From the NCBI GenBank assembly GCA_900543215.1, contig UQQR01000005.1, positions 18,769 through 82,768 of the forward strand: a DNA stretch of 64,000 nt, given 5' to 3'. Below, piece by piece: positions 14,034 through 29,333 of the stretch (the stretch's first letter is position 1; every line of letters starts with the position of its first letter). The notes beneath the pieces are model-generated. The model saw only the letters and a list, made by a program, of their open reading frames with translations. It was not told the DNA's origin and did not search any database. The translations under genes and the position numbers were made by a program. Origin of the DNA: an uncultured Oscillospiraceae bacterium. GTDB taxonomy: Bacteria; Bacillota; Clostridia; Oscillospirales; Acutalibacteraceae.

Positions 14034-14402
14034 GCAAAAACCCACACCGCAAAAGCGTAATGCTCTTAAAGGAGAATTACGCAAACCGAGTAGGAACAAA
14101 CAAAACACCGGCCATCATTACAATGGTCGGTGTCAGTCTGTCGATAAACCCCAAGTTTTATTTTTGCGGCGTTTACGCCGCATTTACGTTTTTTCGCTGA
14201 CACGTGCGGCGAAAAAACACCTTGTAAGCGAAAAACCGCTTATTCAGCGGTTTTTCAAGGGCACTGGGGTGGTATTGGCGGGGATAGAGTACAGTCCGAA
14301 AATCTCTGATTTTCGAGCGAACGGCATTCCCGTCCAAGAGCGTGTCGACTTTTTCGACACGCTCACACCGGCCATCATTACAATGGTCGGTGTTTTTGTG
14401 CA
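14034..14402. repeat. hairpin-dense intergenic block with a duplicated 29-bp palindromic unit
   Basis: ACACCGGCCATCATTACAATGGTCGGTGT occurs at 14105-14133 and 14365-14393. Additional perfect hairpins are GCGGCGTTTACGCCGC (14166), GAAAAACCGCTTATTCAGCGGTTTTTC (14231) and GAGCGTGTCGACTTTTTCGACACGCTC (14338). ORF 13957-14445 across it is low-complexity and judged spurious. Confidence 0.5.
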
Positions 14403-15257
14403 TTATTTGTTTCGCTCACCTCTAAATTCATCAATTAAGGTTTGAAATTCAGTAGCGCTCATCTTTACATACATTTTTTGAACATACTCATAAAGGAATC
14501 TCGAAACTTTTTTATAAGACAATTTACAGCAGCGCATCACCTCGAACCGATGTTTCCGTCTTAACTTTTTGTCATCAGTTTCTTTAAATCCCATGCGCAG
14601 AAAAAGGATTTCATATTTCGAATATACGGCAAAAAAATACGCAACTGGTAAATATAAGGTTGAAAGCACTATGGGTAAAGCCAAACCAACTATGATATCA
14701 ATAAATTGAATACTACCAATTGAGTTGATAGCCGATATTATTGTAAGAGCAAGTATTCCCAAACCCAAAATGCCAACAAGACCATCAATGATTTTTTTTA
14801 CTTTTTCGGTCTTTTTAATTAGTGTTGATTGGAGAATCATAAAAATTACTAAAAGGGGCTGTAGTATCAGTTCGAGTATGATATGGAATGTAAACGTACC
14901 CGTAAAAAATTCCACTAATGCTACAAATTTTAAATTATCAATTATTATATTCCTAAAATAATGCTTTTCCATTTCTCTGCTCGCCGCATTAAAGCAAACA
15001 GGAACTCCAGCAAATAGAGTCCAAAAGATAATATCCTTAATATATACCCAATCCCAAAATGGCAAAAATGTACATACCCAAGTAAAAACTGCAGCAAATG
15101 ATATTACAATCAAAAATGGAACGATAAGTTTTATTTTACACGCAGCCTTAATAACTGGTACCACGATAGATTTTGCTTTTTTGTGTATGAGCAGATAGAT
15201 TAGTAAACCTATTGCATAAACAAAAATTGCAACTTCGCGCGTTGAAAAAAACCACAT
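14403..15257 (-). CDS. multi-pass membrane protein of unknown function (about 7 TM, basic C-terminal tail), AT-rich
   Basis: 284 aa with hydrophobic segments throughout, about 30% GC versus about 50% in flanking host genes. Co-oriented with the upstream gene, separated by 10 bp. Confidence 0.6.
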   Translation of the reverse strand: MWFFSTREVAIFVYAIGLLIYLLIHKKAKSIVVPVIKAACKIKLIVPFLIVISFAAVFTWVCTFLPFWDWVYIKDIIFWTLFAGVPVCFNAASREMEKHYFRNIIIDNLKFVALVEFFTGTFTFHIILELILQPLLVIFMILQSTLIKKTEKVKKIIDGLVGILGLGILALTIISAINSIGSIQFIDIIVGLALPIVLSTLYLPVAYFFAVYSKYEILFLRMGFKETDDKKLRRKHRFEVMRCCKLSYKKVSRFLYEYVQKMYVKMSATEFQTLIDEFRGERNK

Positions 15258-15266
15258 ATTTATCTA

Positions 15267-16160
15267 TCACCCTCTTTTTTTAAGTGCGGATAATACTGCA
15301 TTGTCCGAAACGGCATCTAAATATAGTGACATTGGAAATAAAAGATGTGCCTTATTTGAATATGACGGAAAATTCATTGCAAAATTCACACTACAAGGGA
15401 CACCTACAGAAAGGCTATAATCTTTTGCTGGCAACCCCTTTATGATATCTTGTTCAATTTCTTCAAGTTCTTTTTCATATCTTTGAATTTTTAAATTCTT
15501 AAAATTACTAATGTCATTCTCCAATTTTGATATCCAGTTTTTAAATTCTCTTATAGATGGATCTTGCGACCATTCTTTTGCAATTTCTATCATTTGTTTA
15601 AATGAAGATGATTGTCTATTTATTGAAGAAAAAATAATATTTGGATTGAATGTTAAGTTTGCTTTGCGGATAGAATCATTTAAATCGGCATAATAGTTGA
15701 AAACATCTTTATCAAGTGCATGTATAGCATCATGTCGGTTGTAGTACTGTTTGAATTCGAAATATAAGTCATTTTCTTTTACAAATTTAGCTCTTTCATC
15801 AAAAGGCATATAACTTATATTGCAATGATTGGCAATATTCATATATTCCAATGCTCCCTTTGCAACCAAAGAGGTGTATTTGCTGCAGAATTCTTTATAA
15901 TAATTGAATTCTGCTTTTTGTAAAGAGTCACCAGTATTTTGAAGCGATATAGATTTTAGCAAATCCTTTATATCAATATCATCAATCATAGAATGATTTT
16001 GCCAATATGTCGAAAAGCCATTCTCGAAATAATATATATCATCCCATAACACTAAAATTTCGATAAATGCAATTACTTCAGGTGAAAAGTCTGTGCTTTC
16101 ATCGTTAATACATTGAGTAATTCTCTCTATAGTCCAATTATCAAGCAATATTCCAGTCAT
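15267..16160 (-). CDS. hypothetical cytoplasmic protein (no recognisable domain), AT-rich
   Basis: 297 aa ORF with RBS GAGGTGA upstream of the ATG at 16160. First gene of a two-gene low-GC cassette. Confidence 0.6.
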   Translation of the reverse strand: MTGILLDNWTIERITQCINDESTDFSPEVIAFIEILVLWDDIYYFENGFSTYWQNHSMIDDIDIKDLLKSISLQNTGDSLQKAEFNYYKEFCSKYTSLVAKGALEYMNIANHCNISYMPFDERAKFVKENDLYFEFKQYYNRHDAIHALDKDVFNYYADLNDSIRKANLTFNPNIIFSSINRQSSSFKQMIEIAKEWSQDPSIREFKNWISKLENDISNFKNLKIQRYEKELEEIEQDIIKGLPAKDYSLSVGVPCSVNFAMNFPSYSNKAHLLFPMSLYLDAVSDNAVLSALKKRG

Positions 16161-16590
16161 TTAATCACCTCTTCATATTTTCCTTTATTATATCATAAAA
16201 CTGCTAATGAGCAAAGTAAATTGTCGATTAATGTACGGTTTAATAGCAAAAATCAAACCACCTTAAACAGGCTGCTTTAATAAGAATTTTGTATGTCCCA
16301 TGAAAAAAGCCGATTGACGAGTGCAAAAGTAAGCAGCACAGGATCAAGAAAATCCTGTGCTGTTTGCTTTATCCGGCGTGTCCGAACAACTCAAGGCCAA
16401 TCACCAAATGGAGTGGGTTGCTCGAATGAATAACATCCACAGTAGATCACGGAAATTGTAAATAATGATTTGATACTAATATAAGCGAACAGAGCGGGCG
16501 CTCGGCCTCGCTCTGTTCGAGACTTCTTTAGATATTGTGTAAACCTCCAAGAAGGTATAAAATAGAAATAACAAATCGGAGGTTATAATT

Positions 16591-18113
16591 ATGCCAAGGT
16601 ACAAAGACAGCCCGGAGGTACGGGCAGCAAAACAGGAACGGAGAGAGAAATTGCGGGAGTTGCTCGCGCTGATGGAGGTAGAGGATGTCCGAGACCTGAA
16701 ATCCGTATTTAAGGAAATGGTCGGCGAGGTTCTCGAAAACGGACTTGAAGCGGAGCTTGACGATAAGCTAGGTTAGACAATACAATCAGGATACAATACT
16801 TTTTTGAAGAAACGGCGCCGTTATCGGCATTGTTGCCCTCCGCTCACAATACGTCAGTATTCTTCGGTCAGGCGCCGCGCCGATAAACAGCACCGTTTTT
16901 TTACAAAATCCCTGACCCATAGCGAGAAAATTTTTTTGTTTATGAAGTCGAGGAATGCAGGCATACCGGCGTATTTCAAATGACGAGGCAATATAAACAG
17001 ATAAATTTTCCGCTATGGGAAGCATTGTACCCTGATTGTATTGTCTACACCAAGTACGATTACCGAAATAAAGACACCGACAACAGCCGAAACGGTCATA
17101 GCGTAAAGACTGTTAAAACAAGTGCGGGCGAAGTGGAAATAGCCGTTCCGCGAGACAGGAAATCCGAATTTGAACCGCCGATCATCAGGAAAAACGAAAC
17201 ATCAATAAGCTGGGATATTGAAGAAAAGATCATTTCAATGTACGCCAAAGGTATGACCACCAACGATATTTCGGCACATATTGAGGATATTTACGGAATA
17301 GAGGTATCGGACAGTCTTGTAAGCCGAATAACGGATAAAATACTTCCGGTAGTGAAGGAATGGCAGCAGAGACCGCTTGAAGGCATCTATGCGGTAGTTT
17401 TTATGGACGCAATTCATTACAATGTACGCTGTGAGGGCAGAATTGTAAAGAAAGCCGTATACATAGCAATCGGCATAAATATGGACGGGAAGAAAGATGT
17501 TCTCGGTATGTATGTCGGGGAGAATGAAAGCGCAAGGTATTGGCTTTCAATACTTAACGGGCTGAAAAACAGAGGTGTTGAGGATATTTTAATTGCCTGT
17601 GTCGACGGCCTTACGGGTTTCCCCGAGGCAATATCCGCCGTATATCCGAAAACCGAAGTACAGCAATGTATTATACATTAAATCCGTAACAGCACAAAGT
17701 ATGTTTCATACAAGGATATTAAAGCTCTAATGGCGGATTTAAAGGAGGTTTACGCCGCCGTAGACGAGGAAACGGCGCTTTACGAATTAGAGCAGTTTGC
17801 GGCCAAATGGGACTCAAAATATCCTAAAATTTCGGCTTCATGGAAGGCTCATTGGTTTGAACTTTCAACCTATTTTAAGTATCCGCAATCGGTAAGAACG
17901 CTGATCTACACCACCAATTCCATTGAAAATTTTAACAGGCAGCTGCGGAAGGTTTCAAAAAACAGGTCGGTATTCCCGAACGATGACAGCCTGCTTAAAA
18001 TGCTCTACTTGGCTCAGGTAGACATTACAAGAAAATGGACCGGCAGACGCAGGGACCAAAGTGAGATTCATTCTCAGCTTGAAATATTCTTTGCCGACAG
18101 ACTGCCGGAGTAG
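16591..18113 (+). pseudogene. IS256-family transposase, disrupted by a 270-bp insertion and a CAA>TAA nonsense codon
   Basis: Three ORFs (16591-16776, 16980-17681, 17730-18113) concatenate to a full IS256 Tpase: ...LEAELDDKLG|YTKYDYRNKDTDNSRNGH... and ...QQCIIH*IRNSTKYVSYKD.... The in-frame TAA at 17682-17684 sits where family members have Gln (CIVHQIRNS). Confidence 0.8.
16776..17045. mobile_element. MITE-like 270-bp element with perfect 15-17-bp terminal inverted repeats and a TA target duplication, inserted in the transposase gene
   Basis: TIRs TAGACAATACAATCAGG (16774-16790) and CCTGATTGTATTGTCTA (17031-17047). Removing 16776-17045 and keeping one TA restores the reading frame ...GAT AAG CTA GGT TAC ACC AAG (DKLGYTK). 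Confidence 0.55.
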
Positions 18114-18308
18114 CAGAAATTCACAGCCATGTAAAGGGTAAAATGAACGGCTGCCACGACAGCCGCCCTTGACATGCCTTGCTCTTTCTGCTATTATGCA
18201 AATATGGCGTGCAAGCCGATTTTCGCCTTTCACGCCATCTATCACTTTGCTTTTTTATACCGTAATTTGGACTTTACACATAATTTGAAGAAGAACTAGG
18301 AGGAACCT

Positions 18309-20069
18309 GTGAAATATCTTAAAAATTCTTGTTGGCTTTTAGCCTTACTATGGAAACAAAATAAACCTATTTATTTTTGCTTTATTTCAGAAATACTATT
18401 AAATGTATTGCTGAATACAATAGGAATTGCAATCATTAATTATTTAATACAATATCTTTCCGACAGTGAATATCAATCGGCATTTATAGCGGTGCTGATT
18501 TTATGCTTAAGCACTCTTGTTCTAAATACATTAGTATCATTTCTTCAATACAAAAAACAGGGCTATTTAAACTCGTTTAATGTGTTTATAAAATGTATGC
18601 TGACAGACAGCACACTATCCACAAATTTCGATAACTTTGAAAAATGCGATTTCAGAGAACAGTATCAATTTGCAACAAAATGCGTCACAAGCGGTAATAT
18701 TCAAAATATAATTAATGCAGTGTGCAGCTTTGTTACATATATTCTATCGTTTATTACGCTTTCTTCAATCATTTCATATGTTGTGTGGTGGTTGTGGATT
18801 ATTATTCTTTCAAGCACTATTATTAATATAATTTGTGAATTTCATCGTGCAAACATTAATTTTGAAAGCGAGAAATCTCAAAACAGCGTTGAAATTAAAA
18901 TGCTGTATTCGAGAGATCGACTTACTTGGAAATTATTTGCCAAAGAAGTAAGACTGTTTGATATGTTCTCGTATGTTTCTAATCAAGTAAATAAGTATAT
19001 TAATTTATTGTCAAAATTGCAGGACAAGCGAGCTAATAAAATCTTTAAAGCTTTATGGTGGACATATTTGTTTAACGGTATTTTAATGTTGGCGGTATAT
19101 CTTTATGTTTCGTATAAATGCTATACTGGGGTATTTGAATTATCGCAGTTTTCAACTCTTATTTTATCAATTTTATCTATAAATCAAATGGCTTCCGGTA
19201 TTTCTGGCAGTATTCTTTCGATAAAGGAAAACGGTCTTTACATAAGCACATTTATTGATTTTATCAATAACCATAAGCAAAGTGACGAAACAAGCAGAAT
19301 TGATAAGTGCAGGTTTAATACTATCAGTTTCGAAGATGTTAGCTTTAAATATGACGGTGAAAATAATTTTGCATTAAAAAATATATCTTTGACTCTTTCG
19401 GCGGGTAAAAAGTACGGAATTGTCGGCAAAAACGGCTCAGGTAAGACCACTTTCACCAATTTATTGATGGGACTTTATTCGCCGACCGAGGGTGTTGTAA
19501 AAGTTGACGGAAAAAACATCAGCGAAATAAATCCTAATGAGTATATGAAGTATTTTTCGCCTATTTTTCAAAATTATAATATGTATGCCTATGATGTGAA
19601 AGAAAATATATCTATGAATGCTTGCTATGACATTTCAAGGGTGTGCAATTTGTTAAACAAGGTTAATTTTGCTGATAATGACTGCACTCAGTTTGCTGAT
19701 AAGTTTATAACAAAAGAGTATTCGCCGGACGGAATAGAATTTTCCGGCGGTCAGGAACAAAAAATCGCCATTGCCCGTGCATTATATAAAGATGCACCTA
19801 TCTTTGTTTTGGACGAACCATCTTCTGCTCTTTCTCCTAAAAGTGAGTTGGAGCTTTATGAATTGGTTAATAAGCAGCTAAAGGATAAAACAACATTTTT
19901 CGTTTCACACAGAATGGCAAGCTGTATATTATGCGATGAAATTTTAGTATTCGATAACGGCGAAATTGTGGAAAAAGGCAGTCACAGCGAGCTTATGTCA
20001 AATAACGGATTGTACCACAAGATGTTCACATCGCAAAGGAAGCTGTTTTCAGAGGTGAGAGAATCATGA
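18309..20069 (+). CDS. ABC exporter half-transporter (TMD-NBD fusion), subunit 1
   Basis: 586 aa; 6-TM N-terminal domain, Walker A GKNGSGKTT, signature FSGGQEQKIAIARAL, Walker B IFVLDEPSSAL. GTG start 5 nt after an AGGAGG that overlaps the IS256 right end. About 30% GC. Confidence 0.85.
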   Translation: MKYLKNSCWLLALLWKQNKPIYFCFISEILLNVLLNTIGIAIINYLIQYLSDSEYQSAFIAVLILCLSTLVLNTLVSFLQYKKQGYLNSFNVFIKCMLTDSTLSTNFDNFEKCDFREQYQFATKCVTSGNIQNIINAVCSFVTYILSFITLSSIISYVVWWLWIIILSSTIINIICEFHRANINFESEKSQNSVEIKMLYSRDRLTWKLFAKEVRLFDMFSYVSNQVNKYINLLSKLQDKRANKIFKALWWTYLFNGILMLAVYLYVSYKCYTGVFELSQFSTLILSILSINQMASGISGSILSIKENGLYISTFIDFINNHKQSDETSRIDKCRFNTISFEDVSFKYDGENNFALKNISLTLSAGKKYGIVGKNGSGKTTFTNLLMGLYSPTEGVVKVDGKNISEINPNEYMKYFSPIFQNYNMYAYDVKENISMNACYDISRVCNLLNKVNFADNDCTQFADKFITKEYSPDGIEFSGGQEQKIAIARALYKDAPIFVLDEPSSALSPKSELELYELVNKQLKDKTTFFVSHRMASCILCDEILVFDNGEIVEKGSHSELMSNNGLYHKMFTSQRKLFSEVRES

Positions 20070-21862
20070 AAAAACCTACTTTGTTTAAAAATACTTTTAA
20101 GCTTTTTAAATTGTCCTGTAAGCTTTCGCCAAAAAATGTTTTGTTTACGATACTTTCAACAGTAATCACAACCGCCAAAGATATTTTGGGAGTTTTGGCG
20201 CCCGCTTTTCTGATAGATGTTTTGACCAAAAGCAACAGTTTTTCACTTCCGGCAATGATAATAATCTTTTTTTGTGTGATCATTTCCGTCGCTAATATGA
20301 CTACCAAGTATTTTAGTTTGAAGCTGACTTCGCTCGGATACGCAATGAACAACAGAGGTGCTTTGAAAATCGGTCAAAAAGGTATGAGGCTTGATTATAA
20401 GTGCTGGGATGTTCCCGATTATATGGAGAACAACTTTAGAGCGGTGCAAGGCTCTTGGATCTTTATGGGCATTACAGACGCTTTTTTTGAAAAGCTTCTT
20501 TCGGGCTTAATTTCGTTTGTAACTATCAGCTATATCATAATGCAGGTAGATATATTTGTACTTCTGATTATTCTTTTATTGGTTGTAGTAAGCATTTTTC
20601 TTGACAAAAAATGCGCCAAAAGAATACATAAAATTGATCAGCATGAGGCAGTTGCCACAAAGAAAAAGCATTATGATGAAAGTGTATTGTTCGATATAAA
20701 ATACGGAAAAGAAATTCGTACATATAATGCAAAGGATTTTTTCAAGCAGAAGTTTCAAAAATCCTCAGATGAAGTATTGAATTTTGAAAATAAGAAAAAT
20801 AAGAATTCAATGATATTTTCAATACTTAATTATTTGGTTATCTTTTTGCAGTCTGTAACAGTATATTTGACCGCTGTTTTTAGATACGCTTCGGGCAAAA
20901 TGGCAATAAGCTATTTCTTAGTATATTATGGTGCTGTAATTAAGCTTAAAGATGCACTTTGTGCAATATTTGAATTTTATGCGGATATATCCGAGATTGA
21001 AGAATATTACATTGATATAAATAATTATCTTAATACACAAGAGTCAATGAATACTGGGAAATTAACATTGTTTGAAAATAACAGCTCTTTTTGTATTGAA
21101 TTTAAAAATGTGTATTTTAAATATCCGACTACCGAGAAATATATATTGAAAAATATCAGTTTTAAGTTGACTGGCAATGATAAGCTTTGTATCGTGGGAG
21201 AAAACGGAAGCGGAAAAACAACGCTTATTAAGCTTCTACTAAGGCTATATGATCCGACAAGCGGCGAAATCTTATTAAACGGAAATAATATCAAAGAATA
21301 TGATTATCAGCACTATCTGTCTGTTGTTGCACCTGTTTTTCAGGATTTTCAGCTTCACGCTTTCACTCTGCGTGAAAATATCTCGTTTTTGGATAAACAA
21401 AACGATGAAAAAATATTTGTTCTACTGGAAATGCTGGAAATGAAGGAAAAGGTTGAAAGCTTAGAAGATGGCCTTGACAGTATGGTTACAAAACAATTGG
21501 ACGAAAACGGCACAGATTTTTCAGGCGGCGAAAAACAGAAAATCGCAATGATTAGAGCTGGCTTTAAAGACAGCAGATTAGTTGTTTTAGATGAGCCCAC
21601 TTCAAATATTGATCCGTTAGCTGAAATTAAGTTTTATGAAAAAATCAATGAGGTTTTTAATAATAAGCCGATTGTATTTGTTTCCCACAGAATGACAAGT
21701 GCTAAAATTTCAGATTACATCATCGTAATGGATAACGGAGAAATAATTGAAAGTGGACGCTTTCCAGATTTGTTAAATCAAAACGGTACATTTTCAACAA
21801 TGTATAAAGCACAAGCGAACTTATACAAAGACAAGGGGGATTTGAATGCAAAAACAGTTTAA
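20066..21862 (+). CDS. ABC exporter half-transporter (TMD-NBD fusion), subunit 2
   Basis: 598 aa; GENGSGKTT, FSGGEKQKIAMIRAG, LVVLDEPTSNID. ATGA overlap with subunit 1, so a heterodimeric exporter. No N-terminal C39 peptidase domain. Confidence 0.85.
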   Translation: MKKPTLFKNTFKLFKLSCKLSPKNVLFTILSTVITTAKDILGVLAPAFLIDVLTKSNSFSLPAMIIIFFCVIISVANMTTKYFSLKLTSLGYAMNNRGALKIGQKGMRLDYKCWDVPDYMENNFRAVQGSWIFMGITDAFFEKLLSGLISFVTISYIIMQVDIFVLLIILLLVVVSIFLDKKCAKRIHKIDQHEAVATKKKHYDESVLFDIKYGKEIRTYNAKDFFKQKFQKSSDEVLNFENKKNKNSMIFSILNYLVIFLQSVTVYLTAVFRYASGKMAISYFLVYYGAVIKLKDALCAIFEFYADISEIEEYYIDINNYLNTQESMNTGKLTLFENNSSFCIEFKNVYFKYPTTEKYILKNISFKLTGNDKLCIVGENGSGKTTLIKLLLRLYDPTSGEILLNGNNIKEYDYQHYLSVVAPVFQDFQLHAFTLRENISFLDKQNDEKIFVLLEMLEMKEKVESLEDGLDSMVTKQLDENGTDFSGGEKQKIAMIRAGFKDSRLVVLDEPTSNIDPLAEIKFYEKINEVFNNKPIVFVSHRMTSAKISDYIIVMDNGEIIESGRFPDLLNQNGTFSTMYKAQANLYKDKGDLNAKTV

Positions 21863-22547
21863 GCCCGTTATTGCAATTATTGATTCCGGAATGTCATCTT
21901 TAAATAATTGCTTGAAAAAAGATCTATTTATAAATTATTTAGGAAATGACTTTTGCTTTTGCAATGGACAAACGGATGAAGAGGGTCACGGAACTACTAT
22001 TAACAAAATAATAAGGTGGCATAATGAAGATGCAACTTTGATTAATATAAAATTGTTGCAACAAGACGAAGTCATTATGATTAACGACTTGATTGCTGCA
22101 CTGCAGTATGTTTATGATAATATTGATTGTAATATTATAAATATCAGTATGTCATATAATGTAATAGAGGATTTTTCGCTTAAAAGAAATTTAGAAGATA
22201 TATGTAATCGTTTGGCAAATAAAAACATGATAATTGTTGCTGCGTTTGATAATCTTGGCTCAATTTCATATCCAGCAGCATTCAAATCTGTTATTGGAGT
22301 TACGAGCGGCGAGTATTGCAAAAGAAACAATGATGTTGAATATGTTTATAATGACATTGTCAATATTTGTGGAAAAGGAAACAACCAAATTATCTCAATA
22401 AACAAAGATCGAGTTAATTTAGTTTCAGGCAATAGTTTAGCTTGTGCACATGTTTCTGGGATAATTTCAACAATTCTAAATGAAAACGATAATACCGATT
22501 GTATACTAAAAAAGCTAGAACGAATGGCTATTTTCAAACATGATTGA
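21846..22547 (+). CDS. small intracellular S8 (subtilisin-like) serine peptidase lacking signal peptide and pro-domain; LanP-like leader peptidase candidate
   Basis: 233 aa. Catalytic triad in subtilase order and context: D in IAIIDSG, H in EEGHGTT, S in GNSLACAHVSG. It overlaps the preceding ABC gene by 17 nt. Confidence 0.75.
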   Translation: MQKQFKPVIAIIDSGMSSLNNCLKKDLFINYLGNDFCFCNGQTDEEGHGTTINKIIRWHNEDATLINIKLLQQDEVIMINDLIAALQYVYDNIDCNIINISMSYNVIEDFSLKRNLEDICNRLANKNMIIVAAFDNLGSISYPAAFKSVIGVTSGEYCKRNNDVEYVYNDIVNICGKGNNQIISINKDRVNLVSGNSLACAHVSGIISTILNENDNTDCILKKLERMAIFKHD

Positions 22548-22617
22548 GTCTTCTTTAGATATTGTGTAAACCTCCGAGATGGTATAAAATAGAAATAACA
22601 AATCGGAGGTTAAAATT

Positions 22618-24140
22618 ATGCCAAGGTACAAAGACAGCCCGGAGGTACGGGCAGCAAAACAGGAACGGAGAGAGAAATTGCGGGAGTTGCTCGCGCTGAT
22701 GGAGGTAGAGGATGTCCGAGACCTGAAATCCGTATTTAAGGAAATGGTCGGCGAGGTTCTCGAAAACGGACTTGAAGCGGAGCTTGACGATAAGCTAGGT
22801 TAGACAATACAATCAGGATACAATACTTTTTTGAAGAAACGGCGCCGTTATCGGCATTGTTGCCCTCCGCTCACAATACGTCAGTATTCTTCGGTCAGGC
22901 GCCGCGCCGATAAACAGCACCGTTTTTTTACAAAATCCCTGACCCATAGCGAGAAAATTTTTTTGTTTATGAAGTCGAGGAATGCAGGCATACCGGCGTA
23001 TTTCAAATGACGAGGCAATATAAACAGATAAATTTTCCGCTATGGGAAGCATTGTACCCTGATTGTATTGTCTACACCAAGTACGATTACCGAAATAAAG
23101 ACACCGACAACAGCCGAAACGGTCATAGCGTAAAGACTGTTAAAACAAGTGCGGGCGAAGTGGAAATAGCCGTTCCGCGAGACAGGAAATCCGAATTTGA
23201 ACCGCCGATCATCAGGAAAAACGAAACATCAATAAGCTGGGATATTGAAGAAAAGATCATTTCAATGTACGCCAAAGGTATGACCACCAACGATATTTCG
23301 GCACATATTGAGGATATTTACGGAATAGAGGTATCGGACAGTCTTGTAAGCCGAATAACGGATAAAATACTTCCGGTAGTGAAGGAATGGCAGCAGAGAC
23401 CGCTTGAAGGCATCTATGCGGTAGTTTTTATGGACGCAATTCATTACAATGTACGCTGTGAGGGCAGAATTGTAAAGAAAGCCGTATACATAGCAATCGG
23501 CATAAATATGGACGGGAAGAAAGATGTTCTCGGTATGTATGTCGGGGAGAATGAAAGCGCAAGGTATTGGCTTTCAATACTTAACGGGCTGAAAAACAGA
23601 GGTGTTGAGGATATTTTAATTGCCTGTGTCGACGGCCTTACGGGTTTCCCCGAGGCAATATCCGCCGTATATCCGAAAACCGAAGTACAGCAATGTATTA
23701 TACATTAAATCCGTAACAGCACAAAGTATGTTTCATACAAGGATATTAAAGCTCTAATGGCGGATTTAAAGGAGGTTTACGCCGCCGTAGACGAGGAAAC
23801 GGCGCTTTACGAATTAGAGCAGTTTGCGGCCAAATGGGACTCAAAATATCCTAAAATTTCGGCTTCATGGAAGGCTCATTGGTTTGAACTTTCAACCTAT
23901 TTTAAGTATCCGCAATCGGTAAGAACGCTGATCTACACCACCAATTCCATTGAAAATTTTAACAGGCAGCTGCGGAAGGTTTCAAAAAACAGGTCGGTAT
24001 TCCCGAACGATGACAGCCTGCTTAAAATGCTCTACTTGGCTCAGGTAGACATTACAAGAAAATGGACCGGCAGACGCAGGGACCAAAGTGAGATTCATTC
24101 TCAGCTTGAAATATTCTTTGCCGACAGACTGCCGGAGTAG
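22618..24140 (+). pseudogene. IS256-family transposase, same insertion and same nonsense codon as copy A
   Basis: ORFs 22618-22803, 23007-23708 and 23757-24140 are identical at protein level to those of copy A. Confidence 0.8.
22803..23072. mobile_element. second copy of the 270-bp MITE-like element, at the same position within the IS256 transposase gene
   Basis: TIR TAGACAATACAATCAGG at 22801-22817 and its reverse complement at 23058-23074. Confidence 0.55.
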
Positions 24141-24333
24141 CAGAAATTCACAGCCATGTAAAGGGTAAAATGAACGGCTGCCACGACAGCCGCCCTTGAC
24201 ATGCCTTGCTCTTTCTGCTATTATGCAAATATGGCGTGCAAGCCGATTTTCGCCTTTCACGCCATCTATCACTTTGCTTTTTTATACCGTAATTTGGACT
24301 TTACACATAATTTGAAGAAGAACCATAAAAATA

Positions 24334-24396
24334 CCCACTGGATGCGGCGGTTATTCACGTAACCTTGCCTCAACATCCAGTGGGAATTTTTTATTT
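24334..24396 (+). terminator. stem-loop plus T-tract immediately outside the IS256-B right end
   Basis: CCCACTGGATG-27 nt loop-CATCCAGTGGG followed by AATTTTTTATTTT. Confidence 0.45.
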
Positions 24397-24471
24397 TGGC
24401 TTTGTAGCCGTTTGTTTTATCTAAAACGGCCTACAGGTCAATAAAACTATTTCTGTTCGATTGTACGGCAA

Positions 24472-25089
24472 TCAAATCTCATCATATTCTTGAGAAAGTT
24501 TTCTATCCTTTAAAGTTACTTCAATTTTCGAAAGGATCTTAGCAGGATCTAAATCCTTATGATCGCTTGATAATTGCAGCTTTTCAGGTTTAATAAAATA
24601 CTGCGTTTTACCATCAGTACCTTTATGACCTATATAAATTACCACAATAGTATCCCCATCTTTATCGGTTTTAACTTCTGTTTTAATCCAATAATCAGAC
24701 TCTGGCTTTTCTTTGGATTTAATTTCAGGCACATACCAGTCGTCCAAGCGAATCAATTTAGCATCTTTAAACTCAGGAATATTAAGCATGCGCATACATT
24801 TGCTCTGTAAGCTCTTGAAACTATCTATCGATATTTCTTCATTGCATTTAGGACACCAAAGCGTAGGTGCAATTTTATCGGAAACAAATTCAAGTTCTAT
24901 TTCAGGGTGTTTTGTACAATGAAAGTGGATGCCATGTTGGTTGCAAAAATAATACTTGTGCCAATTTTCTTCGCGTTCAGTAAAGTTTGTGCAATCGCCG
25001 TGGAATAATTCACCACCATCATATAAAGTGCATTTTCTGAAAGAAATATTATCATCCAATCGATATATAACTTTATTTTCACTACTCAT
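24472..25089 (-). CDS. Cys/His-rich (zinc-finger-like) protein of unknown function
   Basis: 205 aa with clusters C20/H30/C33, H44/C49/H52/H55/H57/C58/H61 and a CPKC pair. No recognisable catalytic motif. About 38% GC. Confidence 0.6.
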   Translation of the reverse strand: MSSENKVIYRLDDNISFRKCTLYDGGELFHGDCTNFTEREENWHKYYFCNQHGIHFHCTKHPEIELEFVSDKIAPTLWCPKCNEEISIDSFKSLQSKCMRMLNIPEFKDAKLIRLDDWYVPEIKSKEKPESDYWIKTEVKTDKDGDTIVVIYIGHKGTDGKTQYFIKPEKLQLSSDHKDLDPAKILSKIEVTLKDRKLSQEYDEI

Positions 25090-25107
25090 AAATTACTCTC
25101 CTTGTTT

Positions 25108-26088
25108 TTAATCATTAACCTCAATAATTTTCAATGCTTCTTCCGACGTTAATTCACCGCGCAGATATTTATCTCTTGCCTCAGTGGCAGCATCGCACCA
25201 AACATAAAAATCATCATAGGTGATGCCTTTGGGGGACATATATGTTTTACCTTCATTGCGCTCATAACGGCGGTACATTTTTCGCTTTTCTCTGTCGTAT
25301 GCTTCTACAACTTTATCGGTCAGAACCATCTTTTTGTGTTTAAGACTCGGTGCCAGATCCTTACAAGTCTTATCATCTTTAAGAATGCGGTCACAATACT
25401 TGGTCGCCTTGTTGGTTTTGGGAACAAAATATCTACCGCAACATTCACATCTCACAATTTTGGGTTTTGTAGATAAGAACTGCATTAACAGGAAGATATA
25501 ATAATCAGTCAAATTGCGGAAGAAATACCGTGCAGTCAGTTCTCCGTGGAAAGTCAGTTCTTGCTGTAGCATGATTTGTGAAAGAAAATACTGTGTACCT
25601 TCTTCGTCAAGGGTGTTGCCAGTATAAATGTTGTAAAACGTGTCGTTTACAAATAAATTGAAATCAACAATTGAACAAAGCACCATAGGAATTATGGTTT
25701 TTGTAGTCTCGATACATTCGATAGAGCCGTCAAAGACGGGAACAGAATCCATAATCATAGTCTCGGAGAGCAAAGAAGCAATCGGTGAATTCTCTTCCAA
25801 CTCCTTAATCAAACTCTCAGTAGTCGAAGTGAGCCGTTCAAAATTTTTCAAATCTTCTTTGTTGGGTTTATGCTTTCCCTCGGTTTTAATGTTATTTGCA
25901 AGTTCTTGGATTAAATCCACAATCCTTGAATACGGCCAAAAATTCAATTCGGAGAACTCTATAATCTCATCCTTAATCGTGGTGACAGGTAGTTCCTGCT
26001 CACCCGATTCGGTGATGAGATTTCTTTTTATTTGACCATCTTTTTCTAAGGTTACATACAGTCCAATTTGCTGGGGTATTATCTGCAT
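25108..26088 (-). CDS. hypothetical protein with a C-terminal CxCCGRYF...KYCDR...C zinc-ribbon-like segment
   Basis: 326 aa. Acidic N-terminal half, a hydrophobic core, and a basic C-terminal tail with a C4-type cluster (RCECCGRYFVPKTNKATKYCDRILKDDKTC). Co-directional with the 205-aa gene, 18 bp apart. Confidence 0.6.
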   Translation of the reverse strand: MQIIPQQIGLYVTLEKDGQIKRNLITESGEQELPVTTIKDEIIEFSELNFWPYSRIVDLIQELANNIKTEGKHKPNKEDLKNFERLTSTTESLIKELEENSPIASLLSETMIMDSVPVFDGSIECIETTKTIIPMVLCSIVDFNLFVNDTFYNIYTGNTLDEEGTQYFLSQIMLQQELTFHGELTARYFFRNLTDYYIFLLMQFLSTKPKIVRCECCGRYFVPKTNKATKYCDRILKDDKTCKDLAPSLKHKKMVLTDKVVEAYDREKRKMYRRYERNEGKTYMSPKGITYDDFYVWCDAATEARDKYLRGELTSEEALKIIEVND

Positions 26089-26655
26089 AAATTCACCGCC
26101 TTTTGTGTAAAAGTGAACTTTGTATATTTTTCTTCAAAACACCTTCTCACCCCGAAGGTGTTGTTTTCATATTAGAATTATATCACAGACAGGCAAAAAA
26201 GAAAAGTCTGACCTTACAATTGAATGACCTGCCGATAAGATATGCGGAGGCGGCCTTTGGCGATGACAGCAGTTTGCGGGAACTGTGCTGGGAGAGAAAG
26301 ATGCACTGTGGTGTGTTCCGAAAGGACTCGGCGAGCGAAGGATCGTCTTCAACACTACACGGTCAAGAAAAGAGCGTAGGAACAACGTCGGGGAGAACAG
26401 GCTTAAATCTGCGGTGAAGCGAGGAAGGAATATGAACTTTCTCTTATAGGCAACAGTCGCCATCCGCAGTTGTGGGTGCAGCACTCCTTCGAGTTGGTGT
26501 GCTCACAGCGGGAACAAAAAAGTGTTCCTGCACAATATGAATATTGCTCCCACCTTTTAGGTGAGCGCAATAAAAATAAACTCATGAAAGGTGGGATGTA
26601 TATGATTGTTTCAATTGAAACCCCAATGCAAAAATCTACAGAAAGGAAAGAAAAA

Positions 26656-27624
26656 ATGACAACCGAAAAAACACTATCCCTTGTTCGAATGTCGGATGTG
26701 CAGCTTCAAGAAGTCAGATGGCTATGGAAACCGTATATCCCATTCGGAAAACTGACCATCATCCAAGGTGACCCCGGCGAAGGTAAAACGACCTTTGCTC
26801 TACGGCTCGCCGCCGCTTGTTCTTCGGGCGTGGCTTTGCCCGGCATGGAAATTGCAGAACCCTTCAATGTGATTTATCAAACCGCCGAAGACGGACTCGG
26901 CGACACCATCAAGCCAAGGCTTATTGAAGCAGGTGCCGATGAAAGCAGAGTGCTGAATATCTGCGAGGACACCGATCCTCTTTCTCTGTCGGATGAAAGA
27001 ATCGAACAGGCAATCAGGCAGACCGATGCCAAGCTGATGATCCTCGACCCGATTCAAGGTTATATCGGTGAGCGCATTGATATTAATCGTGCCAACGAAA
27101 TCCGCACCATTCTTAAAAAGGTTGCCGCCGTTGCCGAGCATACAGGATGCGCCATTATTATGGTCGGTCACCTTAATAAAGCTCAAGGCTCAAGCAGTGC
27201 CTACCGAGGACTTGGTTCAATAGACTTCCGTGCAGCCGCAAGAAGTGTTCTGTTAGTGGGTCGGCTTCGCAAAGAACCGAATGTCCGAGTTATTGTTCAC
27301 GATAAATCTTCGCTGACACCCGAAGGTAAATCCATCGCCTTCAACCTTGGTAATGAGGATGGTTTTTATTGGCTCGACGGTTACAGTGAAATATCCGCCG
27401 AAGAACTGCTCTGTGGTTTCTCTGCCGAAACCAAAACAGCGGTAGCAGAAGAACTGATCCGCAGTATGTTGGCTGACGGCAAAGAAGTTACGGCAGAGGA
27501 AATATTCAGAACCGCCGCCAACAAAAACATTTCCCAGCGCACCGTTAATGAAGCCAAGAAAAACATTGACGGCATCAAAAGCCGAAAGGTTGGCAAAGGC
27601 TGGGCGTGGTCGATACCCGAATAA
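26656..27624 (+). CDS. AAA_25/RecA-fold ATPase typical of integrative mobilizable elements (primase/helicase-loader-like)
   Basis: Start placed at MTTEKT. WLWKPYIPFGKLTIIQGDPGEGKT (Walker A), LMILDPIQGY (Walker B-like), and a C-terminal wHTH-like tail. Confidence 0.7.
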   Translation: MTTEKTLSLVRMSDVQLQEVRWLWKPYIPFGKLTIIQGDPGEGKTTFALRLAAACSSGVALPGMEIAEPFNVIYQTAEDGLGDTIKPRLIEAGADESRVLNICEDTDPLSLSDERIEQAIRQTDAKLMILDPIQGYIGERIDINRANEIRTILKKVAAVAEHTGCAIIMVGHLNKAQGSSSAYRGLGSIDFRAAARSVLLVGRLRKEPNVRVIVHDKSSLTPEGKSIAFNLGNEDGFYWLDGYSEISAEELLCGFSAETKTAVAEELIRSMLADGKEVTAEEIFRTAANKNISQRTVNEAKKNIDGIKSRKVGKGWAWSIPE

Positions 27625-27859
27625 AGATTGCAACATTGCAGAGTGTCCTATCTGCATTGTTAAAAGTAGATGACAATGGGAGTCCTTTGCATTGTTGCAT
27701 TCTTCTTTTTCTGCCGTATGGATTACAGCAGTAACTATCGGTAGGGCGTTTATTGCGAGTTTCGCCTTTGTGTTACGTCCACCGATTTCGGCGGCCGCAC
27801 CAAAGGCGGTCGGGCTAAGCCCATACCCCCTATATTTTTAAGAAAGGACGGTTACAACG

Positions 27860-28168
27860 ATGACTAAAACCGAAATATTAAAGTTCAGGGTAACACCTGA
27901 AGAAAAAGAAATCATCACCCACAAGGCACTATCCTCATACAGACTCGTCAGTCAGTATCTGCGTGACTGTGCCTTGGAAAAACAAATCACCGTGATAAAC
28001 GGTGCGGATAATGTTGCCGATGAGCTCAGGCGCATCGGTAATAATGTAAATCAAATCGCCCGTGCGGTAAACGCTGGCTTCGTTACCGAAACAAACCTCA
28101 CGGAAACAAGAGAGGAGTTGAAAGCGATATGGCAATCGTTAAATTCGTTACTTCGGACTGCCCGATGA
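27860..28168 (+). CDS. mobC: mobilization protein MobC (relaxosome accessory)
   Basis: 102 aa with the MobC family signature RIGNNVNQIARAVN. It overlaps the relaxase start by 40 nt. Confidence 0.75.
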   Translation: MTKTEILKFRVTPEEKEIITHKALSSYRLVSQYLRDCALEKQITVINGADNVADELRRIGNNVNQIARAVNAGFVTETNLTETREELKAIWQSLNSLLRTAR

Positions 28169-29109
28169 ATAATATCTTTCCCTATGTTATGAGGAAAGAG
28201 GCAACCGAGCAAAGACTCATAAGCGGCATTGAGTGTTCACCCAATACGGCGTTGGAAGAATTCCGTTATGTAAAACAGAAATACGGTAAAGAGGACGGCA
28301 GAACCTACTATCATATCGTGCAGTCCTTCGCTCCCGATGATGAACTGACATCCGAAACCGCACATGAAATCGGGTTAAAGTTTGCAGAACACTTTCCCGG
28401 TTATCAGATCTTGGTGGCGACCCATTACAACACCGGTCATATTCACAATCATCTTATTATGAACTCTGTCAACTACCAAAACGGTAAAAAGTTTCACCAA
28501 ACCCGCGATGAACTTTTGCAGGTGAAGGCATACTCCAACAAGCTCTGTCAGGAGTATGGGTTGAGCATTACCGAAGAAAAGTGCAGCTACGGCAGATGGC
28601 CGGAATGGAAAAAGCGACTCCGCAGTTTTGCTCTGTATGCAATAAGTAATTCCGATACAAAAGAAGAATTTATTGCGTATATGCGCGAGCACGGATACAA
28701 CGTCAAGTGGGAAGATAAATACAAATATATCACCTTCACCACACCCGACAATCACGTGTGCCGCGACAAGAGTTTGTTTGATGAGCGTCTGCTCAAAGAC
28801 AACCTCGAAGTATACTTTGCGCTTGGCGGTGCGAGCAGCGAACTATATGATGACTATAACGATTATAAAACTCCTGCGCATACACCCGAAGCAAGCATGA
28901 CAGTTACAACGGGACTCATAAGTTTACTCGGCGATCTGCTTTCAACAGCACCGCCCGAGGACGATTATGAGCCGCATCCGGCAAAAGAACTAAGCACCGC
29001 CGCGAAGCTTAGACTTGAAAAAATCCTCGGCAAGAAAATTTCACCTATGGCATACGCTTGCTATTCTACTCAGGAAGATGAAGGACAAGCGATGGGGTTT
29101 TATATGTAA
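28129..29109 (+). CDS. relaxase/mobilization nuclease (PF03432-type)
   Basis: MAIVKFV... N-terminus. The catalytic-Tyr region is YYHIVQSF, and the 3-His metal motif is HYNTGHIHNHLIMNSV. Confidence 0.8.
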   Translation: MAIVKFVTSDCPMNNIFPYVMRKEATEQRLISGIECSPNTALEEFRYVKQKYGKEDGRTYYHIVQSFAPDDELTSETAHEIGLKFAEHFPGYQILVATHYNTGHIHNHLIMNSVNYQNGKKFHQTRDELLQVKAYSNKLCQEYGLSITEEKCSYGRWPEWKKRLRSFALYAISNSDTKEEFIAYMREHGYNVKWEDKYKYITFTTPDNHVCRDKSLFDERLLKDNLEVYFALGGASSELYDDYNDYKTPAHTPEASMTVTTGLISLLGDLLSTAPPEDDYEPHPAKELSTAAKLRLEKILGKKISPMAYACYSTQEDEGQAMGFYM

Positions 29110-29120
29110 GCCAACTTGAG

Positions 29121-29333
29121 TTGGAGAAAGGATTTATTATGAGCAATATTCTTAACAACAAAATCGACACAGATGTTTTTGAAGAAAACCGCCGTCATTA
29201 TTATTTTGCACAGACGATAGAGATAGACGGCAGACGATATCCTGTGATTTCAGTAATTCCCTTGGCACAAGAAGATCACTTCGAAACCGCAGAAGACAAA
29301 CTGAAATATTTAATAATCGGCACAAAAAATTAA
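29121..29333 (+). CDS. small hypothetical protein in mobilization module
   Basis: A 70-aa ORF immediately after the relaxase. No motif found. Confidence 0.35.
   Translation: MEKGFIMSNILNNKIDTDVFEENRRHYYFAQTIEIDGRRYPVISVIPLAQEDHFETAEDKLKYLIIGTKN

What the first reader, a model, noticed from the sequence alone, without database searches (positions are those of the whole stretch)
18309..22547. Orphan peptide export/maturation-like module: heterodimeric ABC exporter plus a 233-aa pro-domain-less S8 subtilase
Two overlapping TMD-NBD half-transporters without C39 domains are immediately followed by a minimal cytoplasmic subtilase. The three genes are translationally coupled. The subtilase has its D-H-S triad but no signal peptide, pro-peptide or P-domain. 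This is the LanT/LanP-type architecture of class I lanthipeptide and other RiPP loci. No precursor peptide or modification enzyme is present between the IS copies. So it is either an IS-truncated remnant, an immunity or export unit, or it partners with an unrecognised neighbour such as the AT-rich pair at 14403-16160.
Basis: partly seen in the sequence, partly recalled or inferred. Interest (0 to 1): 0.55.

Follow-up and report, generated by a model that had tools for sequence, protein, structure and literature searches.

The report
IS-cut fragment of a peptide gene cluster
The three genes are real, but they are a 4.25-kb piece that two insertion-sequence copies cut out of a larger, already known kind of radical-SAM peptide-antibiotic gene cluster, and the "minimal" protease is only the first 233 of 603 residues of its parent protein, so this is an ordinary remnant and not a new system.

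Summary
Two overlapping ABC half-transporters (18309-20069, 20066-21862) and a 233-aa S8 ORF (21846-22547) lie between two direct 1778-bp IS256-family copies.

The identical ABC proteins also occur in an intact cluster on a conjugative element in many gut metagenomes. That cluster reads: agr quorum-sensing genes, radical-SAM/SPASM maturase, ACP-like protein, a 37-aa Cys-rich precursor, ABC1, ABC2, and a 603-aa S8-TIGR04066 fusion.

The intact cluster matches the window at 99.9% over exactly 18297-22545, and the match stops at both IS ends. The right IS cuts the fusion in its interdomain linker and completes the stop codon. The left IS sits 12 nt before ABC1 and removes the precursor and maturase.

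In 56 of 60 related genome loci the S8 domain is fused to the TIGR04066/DUF1611-like domain, and 46 of the 60 carry a radical-SAM gene. The S8 domain is closest to QhpE, not to LanP.

The unit cannot make a peptide. Whether the exporter still serves as immunity is untested. Interest is low.

The parts
16519..18296 (+). Left IS256-family copy (1778 bp). It has imperfect terminal inverted repeats (GAGACTTCTTTAGATATTGTGTAAA ... TTTACACATAATTTGAAGAAGAAC). Its transposase is broken by a nested 270-bp element and a TAA stop at 17679-17681.
   Evidence: Self-BLAST gives 99.8% identity to 22546-24323. Transposase_mut scores 252.8 and 82.4 bits. Ends were read. The stop and the nested insert are shown.
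18169..18197 (+). Outward-facing promoter-like site inside the right end of the left IS (TTGACA-17-TATTAT with an upstream TG), 112 nt before the ABC1 start. It is a candidate driver of the cargo genes.
   Evidence: It is the best consensus match in 16400-24500 (11 of 12), with no terminator-like site between it and ABC1. This is a consensus match only; function is inferred.
18297..22545 (+). Cargo: an internal 4.25-kb segment of a conjugative-element-borne radical-SAM RiPP cluster.
   Evidence: It is 99.88-99.98% identical to L093/L095/L098-L102, and homology ends exactly at 18297 and 22545. It is 100% identical in 7 other metagenome contigs that span it. GC is 33-34% against 43-51% in the flanks.
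18297..18308 (+). Retained 12-nt leader with the ribosome-binding site (TAGGAGGAACCT) of ABC1. The left IS inserted just after the precursor gene's terminator hairpin.
   Evidence: Window sequence read; compared with L093 7990-8260 and L075.
18309..20069 (+). ABC1, a TMD-NBD half-transporter of 586 aa. It is intact.
   Evidence: ABC_tran E=1.7e-29. It is 100% identical to L093 8244-10004, and its N-terminus matches L075.
20066..21862 (+). ABC2, a TMD-NBD half-transporter of 598 aa. It is intact.
   Evidence: ABC_tran E=1.5e-29 with a weak ABC_membrane hit. It is 100% identical to L093 10001-11797. The exact protein is listed in 56 blocks of the collection; 9 of the 10 places shown are intact clusters.
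21846..22547 (+). S8 (QhpE-like) catalytic domain. This is residues 1-233 of a 603-aa S8-TIGR04066 fusion, cut in the interdomain linker. Its stop codon is completed by the IS.
   Evidence: QhpE profile 110.3 bits, positions 2-213 of 219. In the parent, QhpE-like covers residues 9-230 and TIGR04066 covers 249-598. Identity over the 233 residues is 100%. L014 homology ends at 22545.
22546..24323 (+). Right IS256-family copy, in direct orientation, with the same nested insert (22803-23072) and the same in-frame stop as the left copy.

Best explanation
**What it is (shown).** The segment 18297-22545 is an internal fragment of an agr-regulated radical-SAM/SPASM RiPP biosynthetic cluster. That cluster normally sits on a conjugative element of human-gut Clostridia.

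The intact cluster reads, in order:
- LytTR response regulator, histidine kinase, AgrB and an AgrD-like peptide
- an HTH regulator
- a radical-SAM/SPASM maturase
- an ACP-like protein
- a 37-aa precursor, MKKIFIKPKHNNYSKKLVLCSCPSNKDECKAAQGCYC, followed by a terminator hairpin
- ABC1 and ABC2
- a 603-aa protein made of a QhpE-like S8 domain fused to a TIGR04066/DUF1611-like domain

**How the intact system most likely works (inferred).** This follows the QhpD/QhpE/QhpF pathway and related Cys-rich peptide clusters.
1. The maturase cross-links the Cys-rich core in the cytoplasm.
2. The S8 domain removes the basic leader in the cytoplasm.
3. The heterodimeric ABC exporter secretes the product.

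**What happened in the window (shown).** Two direct copies of one IS256-family element bracket only ABC1, ABC2 and the first 233 codons of the fusion gene. The left IS lies 12 nt upstream of ABC1. It leaves the ribosome-binding site intact but removes the precursor, the maturase and the agr control. The right IS lies in the linker between the S8 and TIGR04066 domains and supplies two bases of the stop codon.

**Consequence (inferred).** The locus cannot make a peptide. The exporter genes are intact and may be transcribed from an outward promoter-like site in the IS. The stand-alone S8 domain is structurally complete but has no encoded substrate. I judge the unit to be a very recent by-product of IS activity, and most probably neutral. 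Exporter-based immunity is the main functional alternative.
For: - **Breakpoints.** L093 8231-12480 matches window 18297-22545 at 99.93%, and L094, L095 and L098-L102 do likewise. Homology ends exactly at both IS junctions.
- **Protein identity.** ABC1 and ABC2 are 100% identical to those of the intact cluster. The 233-aa ORF equals residues 1-233 of the 603-aa protein. The junction changes CAT GAT TTT TTA to CAT GAT TGA.
- **Cluster membership.** The 90%-identity cluster that holds the 233-aa protein has a 603-aa representative and four more 603-aa members.
- **Parent gene content** is listed. Its family assignments are: TIGR04463 at 174 bits is the best radical-SAM match, QhpE-like covers residues 9-230 and TIGR04066 covers 249-598.
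- **Synteny in 60 genome loci.** S8 and the DUF1611-like domain share one ORF in 56 (median 613 aa). A radical-SAM gene is present in 46, an ACP-like gene in 35, and at least one ABC half-transporter in 47. Cys-rich precursors with MKK..KPK-type leaders occur in many of these loci.
- **A more distant intact relative.** L075 (ABC1 81% identical) has the same gene order plus a SAM synthetase.
- **The IS is active on this cluster elsewhere.** The same IS is inserted in the radical-SAM gene in L099-L101.
- **Functional analogy.** QhpE cleaves the leader of radical-SAM-cross-linked QhpC in the cytoplasm before export by the ABC transporter QhpF (PMC7876137).
- **Related clusters in the literature.** TIGR04068/04066/04069 + subtilase + ABC clusters are described in Roseburia intestinalis (PMC4573289). 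The SacP23 cluster gave antimicrobial activity on heterologous expression (PMC10731318).
Against: - No target-site duplication flanks either IS copy or the whole unit. The route is therefore unresolved: composite transposition, IS-IS recombination or adjacent rearrangement.
- No empty site was recovered. IS-free relatives of the neighbouring mobilizable element diverge within 2 nt of the outer end of the right IS.
- The chemistry of the parent peptide, the role of the ACP-like and TIGR04066 proteins, and the leader-cleavage site are all inferred and not shown.
- Expression of the cargo from the IS promoter-like site rests on a consensus match only.
Confidence: 0.9

Rival explanations
1. Mobile immunity ("cheater") cassette. 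The IS-bounded exporter pair is kept because it pumps out, or excludes, the Cys-rich peptide made by neighbouring bacteria that carry the intact cluster. The IS promoter makes expression constitutive and independent of agr quorum sensing. This rival accepts the origin given above and differs only on present function.
For: - Both ABC genes are intact and 100% identical to the producer's.
- The left breakpoint spares the ribosome-binding site and start codon by 12 nt.
- A strong outward promoter-like site lies in the IS end, with no terminator before ABC1.
- The intact cluster is common in the same kind of samples.
- ABC pairs 51% identical occur without any maturase or S8 gene, next to two-component and MacB/FtsX-type modules (L076-L078).
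- One contig shows a different left flank, an AhpC/TSA gene in L002.
Against: - The cargo shows zero substitutions among the copies, so there is no signal of selection since capture.
- All contigs that extend outward, except L002, show the same locus. The many sightings therefore probably reflect one strain lineage and not spread.
- L002 could be an assembly join through a 1.8-kb repeat.
- Dedicated RiPP exporters do not always confer immunity (general knowledge).
- Both IS copies in the window are defective.
Confidence: 0.25
2. One reading: a self-contained LanT/LanP-type export and maturation unit of a class I lanthipeptide (or other RiPP), with a natively minimal 233-aa cytoplasmic subtilase. 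It would serve a precursor encoded elsewhere or partner with the AT-rich pair at 14403-16160.
For: - An S8 protease sits next to ABC exporters without a C39 domain.
- Some class I LanP enzymes, such as ElxP, are cytoplasmic (PMC10885120).
- In related clusters the subtilase is a separate gene (PMC4573289, PMC10731318). A free S8 domain is therefore not implausible in itself.
Against: - The ORF is residues 1-233 of a 603-aa protein, and its stop codon is created by the IS.
- The best protease family is QhpE, and no LanP-type model was hit.
- The parent and the three more distant loci with Pfam lists carry radical-SAM plus ACP-like genes and list no LanB/LanC/LanM domains.
- The AT-rich pair has no homologue in 63 related loci.
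- No Cys-rich precursor-like ORF with the family's leader exists in the 64 kb.
Confidence: 0.03
3. A generic multidrug-efflux ABC pair that merely happens to lie beside an unrelated protease gene.
For: The top NCBIfam hits of both ABC proteins are generic (MsbA, CydC and Tet(46)-like), and all fall far below their cut-offs.
Against: The ABC1-ABC2-S8 order, with overlapping or abutting genes, recurs with a radical-SAM maturase and precursor in L075, L093 and L016-L020 among others. ABC half-transporters accompany the S8 fusion in 47 of 60 loci.
Confidence: 0.04

Closest known systems
Cys-rich peptide radical-SAM maturation systems (CLI_3235 / CcpM type: TIGR04068 maturase, TIGR04066 protein, TIGR04069 ACP-related protein, subtilase, ABC transporter). 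Examples are the SacP23 cluster of Paenibacillus polymyxa and the five-gene cluster of Roseburia intestinalis L1-82.
   Same: The parent cluster has the same set of parts: a radical-SAM/SPASM maturase, a small ACP-like protein, a TIGR04066-like domain, an S8 protease, ABC exporter(s) and a short Cys-rich precursor (PMC4573289; PMC10731318).
   Different: All curated models score below their cut-offs: TIGR04068 at 101 bits against 500, and TIGR04066 at 91.6 against 200. Here the S8 and TIGR04066 parts are one roughly 610-aa protein, not two genes. The exporter is a pair of half-transporters. The window itself keeps only the exporter and the S8 domain.
QhpE / QhpF of the quinohemoprotein amine dehydrogenase (qhp) operon
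   Same: QhpE is a small (about 219-aa) cytoplasmic subtilisin-like protease without a pro-domain. It acts on a radical-SAM thioether-cross-linked peptide before export by an ABC transporter (PMC7876137). QhpE is the best-scoring family for the window's S8 domain and covers nearly the whole profile.
   Different: The score of 110 bits is below the 165-bit cut-off. There are no qhpA/B/C/G genes. The radical-SAM enzyme is not QhpD-like (64 bits against 453). The substrate is a short secreted peptide and not an enzyme subunit. The hosts are Gram-positive.
LanT / LanP of class I lanthipeptide clusters (NisT / NisP)
   Same: An S8 leader peptidase works together with a C39-less ABC exporter.
   Different: There is no dehydratase or cyclase. 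LanT is a single gene acting as a homodimer, and NisP is a secreted, anchored pre-pro-enzyme (PMC10885120). The protease here groups with QhpE and not with LanP.
IS256-family composite, transposon-like structures
   Same: Two direct copies of a Transposase_mut element with terminal inverted repeats bracket a cargo segment.
   Different: No 8-9-bp target duplications were found. Both copies are defective, with a shared stop codon and a shared nested insert. Movement as a unit is not demonstrated.

Membership tests
Class I lanthipeptide LanT/LanP module | The protease belongs to the LanP/NisP/EpiP group of S8 enzymes | tested here: not met
   The NCBIfam hits of the S8 ORF are QhpE (110.3 bits), mycosin and PatA. 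No LanP-type model was hit.
Class I lanthipeptide LanT/LanP module | LanB dehydratase and LanC cyclase (or LanM), plus a LanA precursor, in the cluster | tested here: not met
   The intact parent (L093-L102) and the relatives L009, L010, L013 and L075 list Radical_SAM, Fer4_12 and PP-binding but no lanthipeptide enzyme domains. The 60 genome loci were screened only with my own queries, not with LanB/LanC models.
QhpE subtilisin-like protease (NF049966) | Score at or above the curated cut-off (165 bits) | tested here: not met
   110.3 bits, E=8.5e-32, profile positions 2-213 of 219. The full-length parent scores 106.7 bits.
QhpE subtilisin-like protease (NF049966) | qhp operon context (QhpA/B/C, QhpD radical SAM, QhpG) | tested here: not met
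   The parent radical-SAM enzyme scores 64 bits against a 453-bit cut-off for the QhpD model. No qhp structural genes appear.
CcpM-type Cys-rich peptide maturation system (TIGR04068/04066/04069) | Radical-SAM maturase reaching the TIGR04068 cut-off (500 bits) | tested here: not met
   L093 maturase: 101 bits for TIGR04068. Its best model is TIGR04463 at 174.1 bits against a 525-bit cut-off. No maturase is present in the window.
CcpM-type Cys-rich peptide maturation system (TIGR04068/04066/04069) | TIGR04066 peptide maturation system protein (cut-off 200 bits) | tested here: not met
   Parent fusion residues 249-598 align to profile positions 1-360 of 361, but at 91.6 bits. L075 scores 101.5 bits. 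This domain is entirely deleted in the window.
CcpM-type Cys-rich peptide maturation system (TIGR04068/04066/04069) | ACP-related small protein | tested here: inconclusive
   The L075 protein passes Pfam PP-binding (30.7 bits against a 20.8-bit cut-off). No TIGR04069 hit was returned by NCBIfam. The gene is absent from the window.
CcpM-type Cys-rich peptide maturation system (TIGR04068/04066/04069) | Short Cys-rich precursor next to the maturase | tested here: met
   This holds for the parent and its relatives only: a 37-aa precursor with 5 Cys in L093 and L075, and similar ORFs in many of the 60 loci. No curated precursor model was hit. No such ORF exists in the window.
IS256 family insertion sequence | Mutator-type (Transposase_mut) transposase | tested here: met
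   PF00872 scores 252.8 and 82.4 bits on the two ORF pieces.
IS256 family insertion sequence | Imperfect terminal inverted repeats | tested here: met
   About 17 of 25 positions match between the ends at 16520 and 18296. This was read by eye.
IS256 family insertion sequence | 8-9-bp target-site duplication | tested here: not met
   The flanks are CTCTGTTC / TAGGAGGA for the left copy and ACATGATT / CATAAAAA for the right copy. The outer pair does not match either.
Composite transposon | The same IS-cargo-IS unit in independent genomic contexts | tested here: inconclusive
   L002 has an AhpC/TSA gene at the left flank. All other extending contigs show the window's own locus. L002 may be a repeat-mediated misjoin.
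Heterodimeric type-I ABC exporter (TMD-NBD half-transporters) | N-terminal membrane domain plus a C-terminal NBD with Walker A, signature, Walker B and H-loop. No C39 peptidase domain. | tested here: met
   Heterodimer formation itself is inferred from the paired, overlapping genes.

The most novel reading that the evidence does not exclude
The IS-bounded exporter (with its orphan S8 domain) is a selected immunity cassette and possibly a mobile one. By cutting the exporter out of an agr-controlled, conjugative-element-borne radical-SAM peptide cluster and placing it behind an IS promoter, a non-producing Acutalibacteraceae strain becomes constitutively resistant to a peptide made by its gut neighbours.
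Probability: 0.2. Interest if true: 0.5.

Novelty: new member of a known kind. Interest (0 to 1): 0.22.

Why it matters
**For annotation.** This is a caution. The "orphan minimal subtilase" is an artefact of an IS insertion, and the trio should be labelled as a truncated piece of a radical-SAM RiPP cluster, not as a lanthipeptide-type module.

**Useful by-product.** The work identifies the intact parent. It is a poorly characterised but widespread family, seen in 60 genome loci across Clostridia, Paenibacillus and Enterococcus. In this family a QhpE-like protease is fused to a TIGR04066/DUF1611-like domain and works with an ACP-like protein and a SPASM maturase on short Cys-rich peptides. In the parent the cluster is under agr quorum sensing and sits on a conjugative element. 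That family, rather than this remnant, is the worthwhile experimental target.

**If the exporter remnant confers immunity.** It would be a small, clean example of insertion sequences turning a biosynthetic cluster into a resistance gene.

Tried and rejected
- **PADLOC defence models.** Nothing for the S8 ORF, and only generic ATPase hits for the ABC proteins.
- **Plasmid collection.** No match to the IS. The cargo gave only short matches of 60-80% identity to ABC genes.
- **Leftover cluster parts in the window.** A tblastn search of the 64 kb found no maturase, ACP-like, DUF1611-like or BtrH-like remnants.
- **Cys-rich small ORFs in the window.** Eight chance ORFs turned up, and none has the family's basic MKK..KPK leader.
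- **AT-rich pair as partner.** No homologue in 63 related loci.
- **Target-site duplications.** None for either IS or for the whole unit.
- **Empty site.**
  - Relatives of the neighbouring mobilizable element diverge at 24325.
  - Every contig with the exact 297-aa neighbour that extends far enough upstream already has the IS beside it.
- **dN/dS among copies of the unit.** Not possible, because the cargo is invariant. Against the 95%-identical L014, the ratio is 0.125 for ABC2 and 0.32 for S8. This reflects history before capture.
- **An early misreading.** From L009, L010 and L013, the S8 and DUF1611 parts looked like separate or overlapping genes. The 60 genome loci show a single ORF of about 613 aa in 56 cases, so the split versions are probably frameshifted or degraded copies.
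- **Literature on DUF1611.** Nothing relevant to this domain's function.

Full report
**1. Observation**

They overlap by 4 and 17 nt, and each downstream start has a Shine-Dalgarno-like run before it.

Pfam finds ABC_tran in both transporters (E about 1e-29), no C39 peptidase, and Peptidase_S8 in the third ORF (E=2.5e-10). Both ABC proteins have canonical Walker A, signature, Walker B and H-loop motifs and N-terminal hydrophobic segments. The S8 ORF has no hydrophobic N-terminus.

The flanking repeats are two direct copies of 1778 bp, at 16519-18296 and 22546-24323, with 4 mismatches. Each encodes a Mutator-type (IS256-family) transposase. The 4249 bp between them is completely filled by the three genes. 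The segment is 33-34% G+C, against 43-51% in the flanks.

**2. The protease ORF is truncated**

The right IS copy begins at 22546, inside the TGA stop codon (22545-22547) of the S8 ORF.

The first homology search gave few relatives, and nearly all were longer. After "...AIFKH" they continue with a conserved "PFNKEMHSLIRF..." segment. The closest IS-free DNA, L014 (95.3% identical), aligns up to 22545 and then continues as coding sequence where the window switches into the IS.

A scan of one genome per species returned 60 loci. In 56 of them the S8 domain is the N-terminus of a single ORF that also holds a DUF1611/TIGR04066-like domain (median 613 aa, range 586-655). A radical-SAM/SPASM gene lies within the flank in 46, an ACP-like gene in 35, at least one ABC half-transporter in 47, and two or more in 29.

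**3. The intact parent**

The 90%-identity cluster that contains the window's 233-aa protein has a 603-aa representative and four more 603-aa members.

A look-up of the window's exact ABC2 protein returned ten places, nine of which are intact clusters (L093-L096, L098-L102). Their gene order is:
- conjugation genes (TraG-type coupling protein, Toprim primase)
- LytTR response regulator, histidine kinase, AgrB and a 49-aa AgrD-like peptide
- an HTH regulator
- radical-SAM/SPASM maturase (445 aa)
- ACP-like protein (82 aa)
- a 37-aa precursor, MKKIFIKPKHNNYSKKLVLCSCPSNKDECKAAQGCYC, followed by a terminator hairpin
- ABC1 (586 aa), ABC2 (598 aa) and the S8 fusion (603 aa)
- two unknown genes, a helicase and three large serine recombinases

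L093 8231-12480 matches window 18297-22545 at 99.93%, and the match ends exactly at both IS junctions. The same is true of seven other contigs. ABC1 and ABC2 are 100% identical at the protein level, and the 233-aa ORF equals residues 1-233 of the 603-aa protein. At the junction the parent's CAT GAT TTT TTA becomes CAT GAT TGA.

In the parent, the QhpE-like S8 domain spans residues 9-230 and the TIGR04066 domain spans 249-598. The cut therefore lies in the interdomain linker.

At the left junction the IS ends 12 nt before the ABC1 start. It sits just after the precursor's terminator and leaves TAGGAGGAACCT, the ribosome-binding site.

A more distant intact relative, L075 (ABC1 81% identical), has the same order plus a SAM synthetase gene.

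**4. What the parts are**

- **S8 domain.** Its best curated family is QhpE (110 bits, nearly full profile coverage, below the 165-bit cut-off). QhpE is a small cytoplasmic subtilisin-like protease. It removes the 28-residue leader from radical-SAM-cross-linked QhpC before export by the ABC transporter QhpF (PMC7876137). The 233 residues model confidently as a complete subtilisin core (pLDDT 89.4, pTM 0.90; TMq about 0.75 to subtilisin BPN'). The remnant is thus a whole catalytic domain and not a broken one.
- **Maturase.** The parent enzyme is a SPASM-type enzyme closest to TIGR04463, Clo7bot, CefB, PapB (ranthipeptide) and CcpM models. All score far below their cut-offs.
- **Gene set.** Maturase, ACP-related protein, TIGR04066 protein, subtilase and ABC transporter is the known "CLI_3235 / CcpM" kind. 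It has been described bioinformatically in Roseburia intestinalis (PMC4573289). In Paenibacillus polymyxa (SacP23) heterologous expression gave antimicrobial activity (PMC10731318). In those clusters the subtilase and the TIGR04066 protein are separate genes. Here they are fused.
- **Precursors.** Across the 60 loci, candidate precursors share a basic leader (MKK..KPK...) and a Cys-rich core.

**5. Mechanism**

- Shown: the origin and the exact breakpoints of the fragment.
- Inferred for the intact system: the maturase cross-links the Cys-rich core, the S8 domain removes the leader in the cytoplasm, and the ABC pair exports the product under agr control.
- Inferred for the window: no peptide can be made, because no precursor, maturase, ACP-like or TIGR04066 sequence exists anywhere in the 64 kb.

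The exporter genes are intact. The right end of the left IS carries the best promoter-like site of the region (TTGACA-17-TATTAT with TG, at 18169-18197), reading outward, with no terminator-like site before ABC1. Expression is therefore plausible but untested.

**6. How it got there**

No target duplications flank either IS or the whole unit. Both IS copies share an in-frame TAA (17679-17681; CAG in L002) and a nested 270-bp insert, so neither is autonomous.

The same IS, in the opposite orientation, interrupts the radical-SAM gene of the intact cluster in L099-L101. The IS has therefore hit this cluster more than once.

The unit lies at the edge of an integrative mobilizable element (24.3-31.1 kb: DUF6076, AAA_25, MobC, relaxase, serine recombinase). 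IS-free relatives of that element diverge from the window within 2 nt of the outer end of the right IS.

Host genes cluster at 90% identity or more with proteins named Acutalibacteraceae.

The cargo is invariant in all 8 contigs that carry the truncated version, while their IS copies vary. Those contigs that extend outward show the same locus, except L002, whose left flank is an AhpC/TSA gene. L002 could be a misjoin through the repeat. I therefore treat the many sightings as one strain lineage seen in many people, not as proven transposition.

**7. Rivals**

- The lanthipeptide LanT/LanP reading fails on the protease family, on the absence of LanB/LanC and on the truncation.
- The AT-rich pair is unrelated.
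- A generic drug pump beside an unrelated protease is contradicted by the conserved synteny.
- The only live alternative concerns present function. An exporter-only immunity cassette is compatible with the spared ribosome-binding site, the IS promoter-like site and the existence of orphan related ABC pairs. No evidence of selection supports it.

**8. Verdict**

It is a new member of known kinds, namely an IS256-bounded remnant of a CcpM-like radical-SAM RiPP cluster. Interest is low for the window itself. The intact S8-TIGR04066 family is the more interesting lead.

Noticed in passing
window 16776-17045 and 22803-23072: A 270-bp element with roughly 17-28-nt terminal inverted repeats (GACAATACAATCAGG...) and an apparent TA duplication is nested in the transposase gene of both IS copies. 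It separates the N-terminal 61 codons from the rest. It is absent from the right IS copy of L002, L005 and L006, so it behaves like a MITE that has invaded the IS.
   Followed up: partly
window 17679-17681 and 23706-23708: Both IS copies share an in-frame TAA where L002 has CAG. All 4 differences between the two window copies lie in the first 70 bp (16522-16586). This suggests duplication or gene conversion of an already defective copy.
   Followed up: partly
window 14105-14133 and 14365-14393: Two perfect 29-nt direct repeats (ACACCGGCCATCATTACAATGGTCGGTGT), each nearly palindromic, lie 260 nt apart. They sit at the boundary between the amino-acid ABC transporter operon and the AT-rich gene pair. 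They could be an attachment site or a REP-like element.
   Followed up: no
window 14403-16160 (- strand): An AT-rich (30-38% G+C) gene pair: a 297-aa soluble protein and a 284-aa protein that looks multi-pass membrane. Neither has a Pfam or NCBIfam hit. The only PADLOC hit is weak (SAVED_TM effector, E=0.0017). Every contig that extends far enough has the IS beside the pair. It could be an unclassified defence or abortive-infection pair.
   Followed up: partly
window 24324-31125: An integrative mobilizable element: a 205-aa unknown protein, DUF6076, an AAA_25 ATPase, MobC/NikA-like, a relaxase and a large serine recombinase (538 aa here, 564 aa in relatives). Relatives without the IS (L079-L082) match 31089 down to 24325 and then carry different genes (DUF4062, a tyrosine integrase).
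   Followed up: partly
window 44317-48445 (- strand): Three consecutive large serine recombinase genes (545, 288 and 547 aa) resemble the triple-recombinase end of the conjugative element that carries the intact peptide cluster (L093 19064-21797; weak DNA match at 48169-48312). A related conjugative element may lie in the window at about 44-64 kb. That region also has a strong negative AT skew (45-50 and 53-58 kb).
   Followed up: no
L099-L101 (start of each locus), L098 3904-5322, L102 9564-11114: The intact cluster is decaying in several samples. The same IS256-family element is inserted in the radical-SAM gene (at L093 position 6678). A DDE_Tnp_1 IS lies next to the agr genes. One copy of the S8 fusion is shortened to 516 aa.
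   Followed up: partly
L076-L078 (10001-13533): ABC half-transporter pairs 51% identical to ABC1 occur in a conserved chromosomal context without any maturase or S8 gene. They lie next to a two-component system and a MacB/FtsX-type ABC module. These may be stand-alone peptide-resistance exporters.
   Followed up: no
window 59519-59779 (- strand): An 86-aa ORF with an acidic, Cys-rich C-terminal tail (CDGDCENCPIADIDCDGDCEDCPCSDNCDESEAN). It came up in the Cys-rich ORF screen. It is 37 kb from the finding and lacks the precursor family's leader.
   Followed up: no
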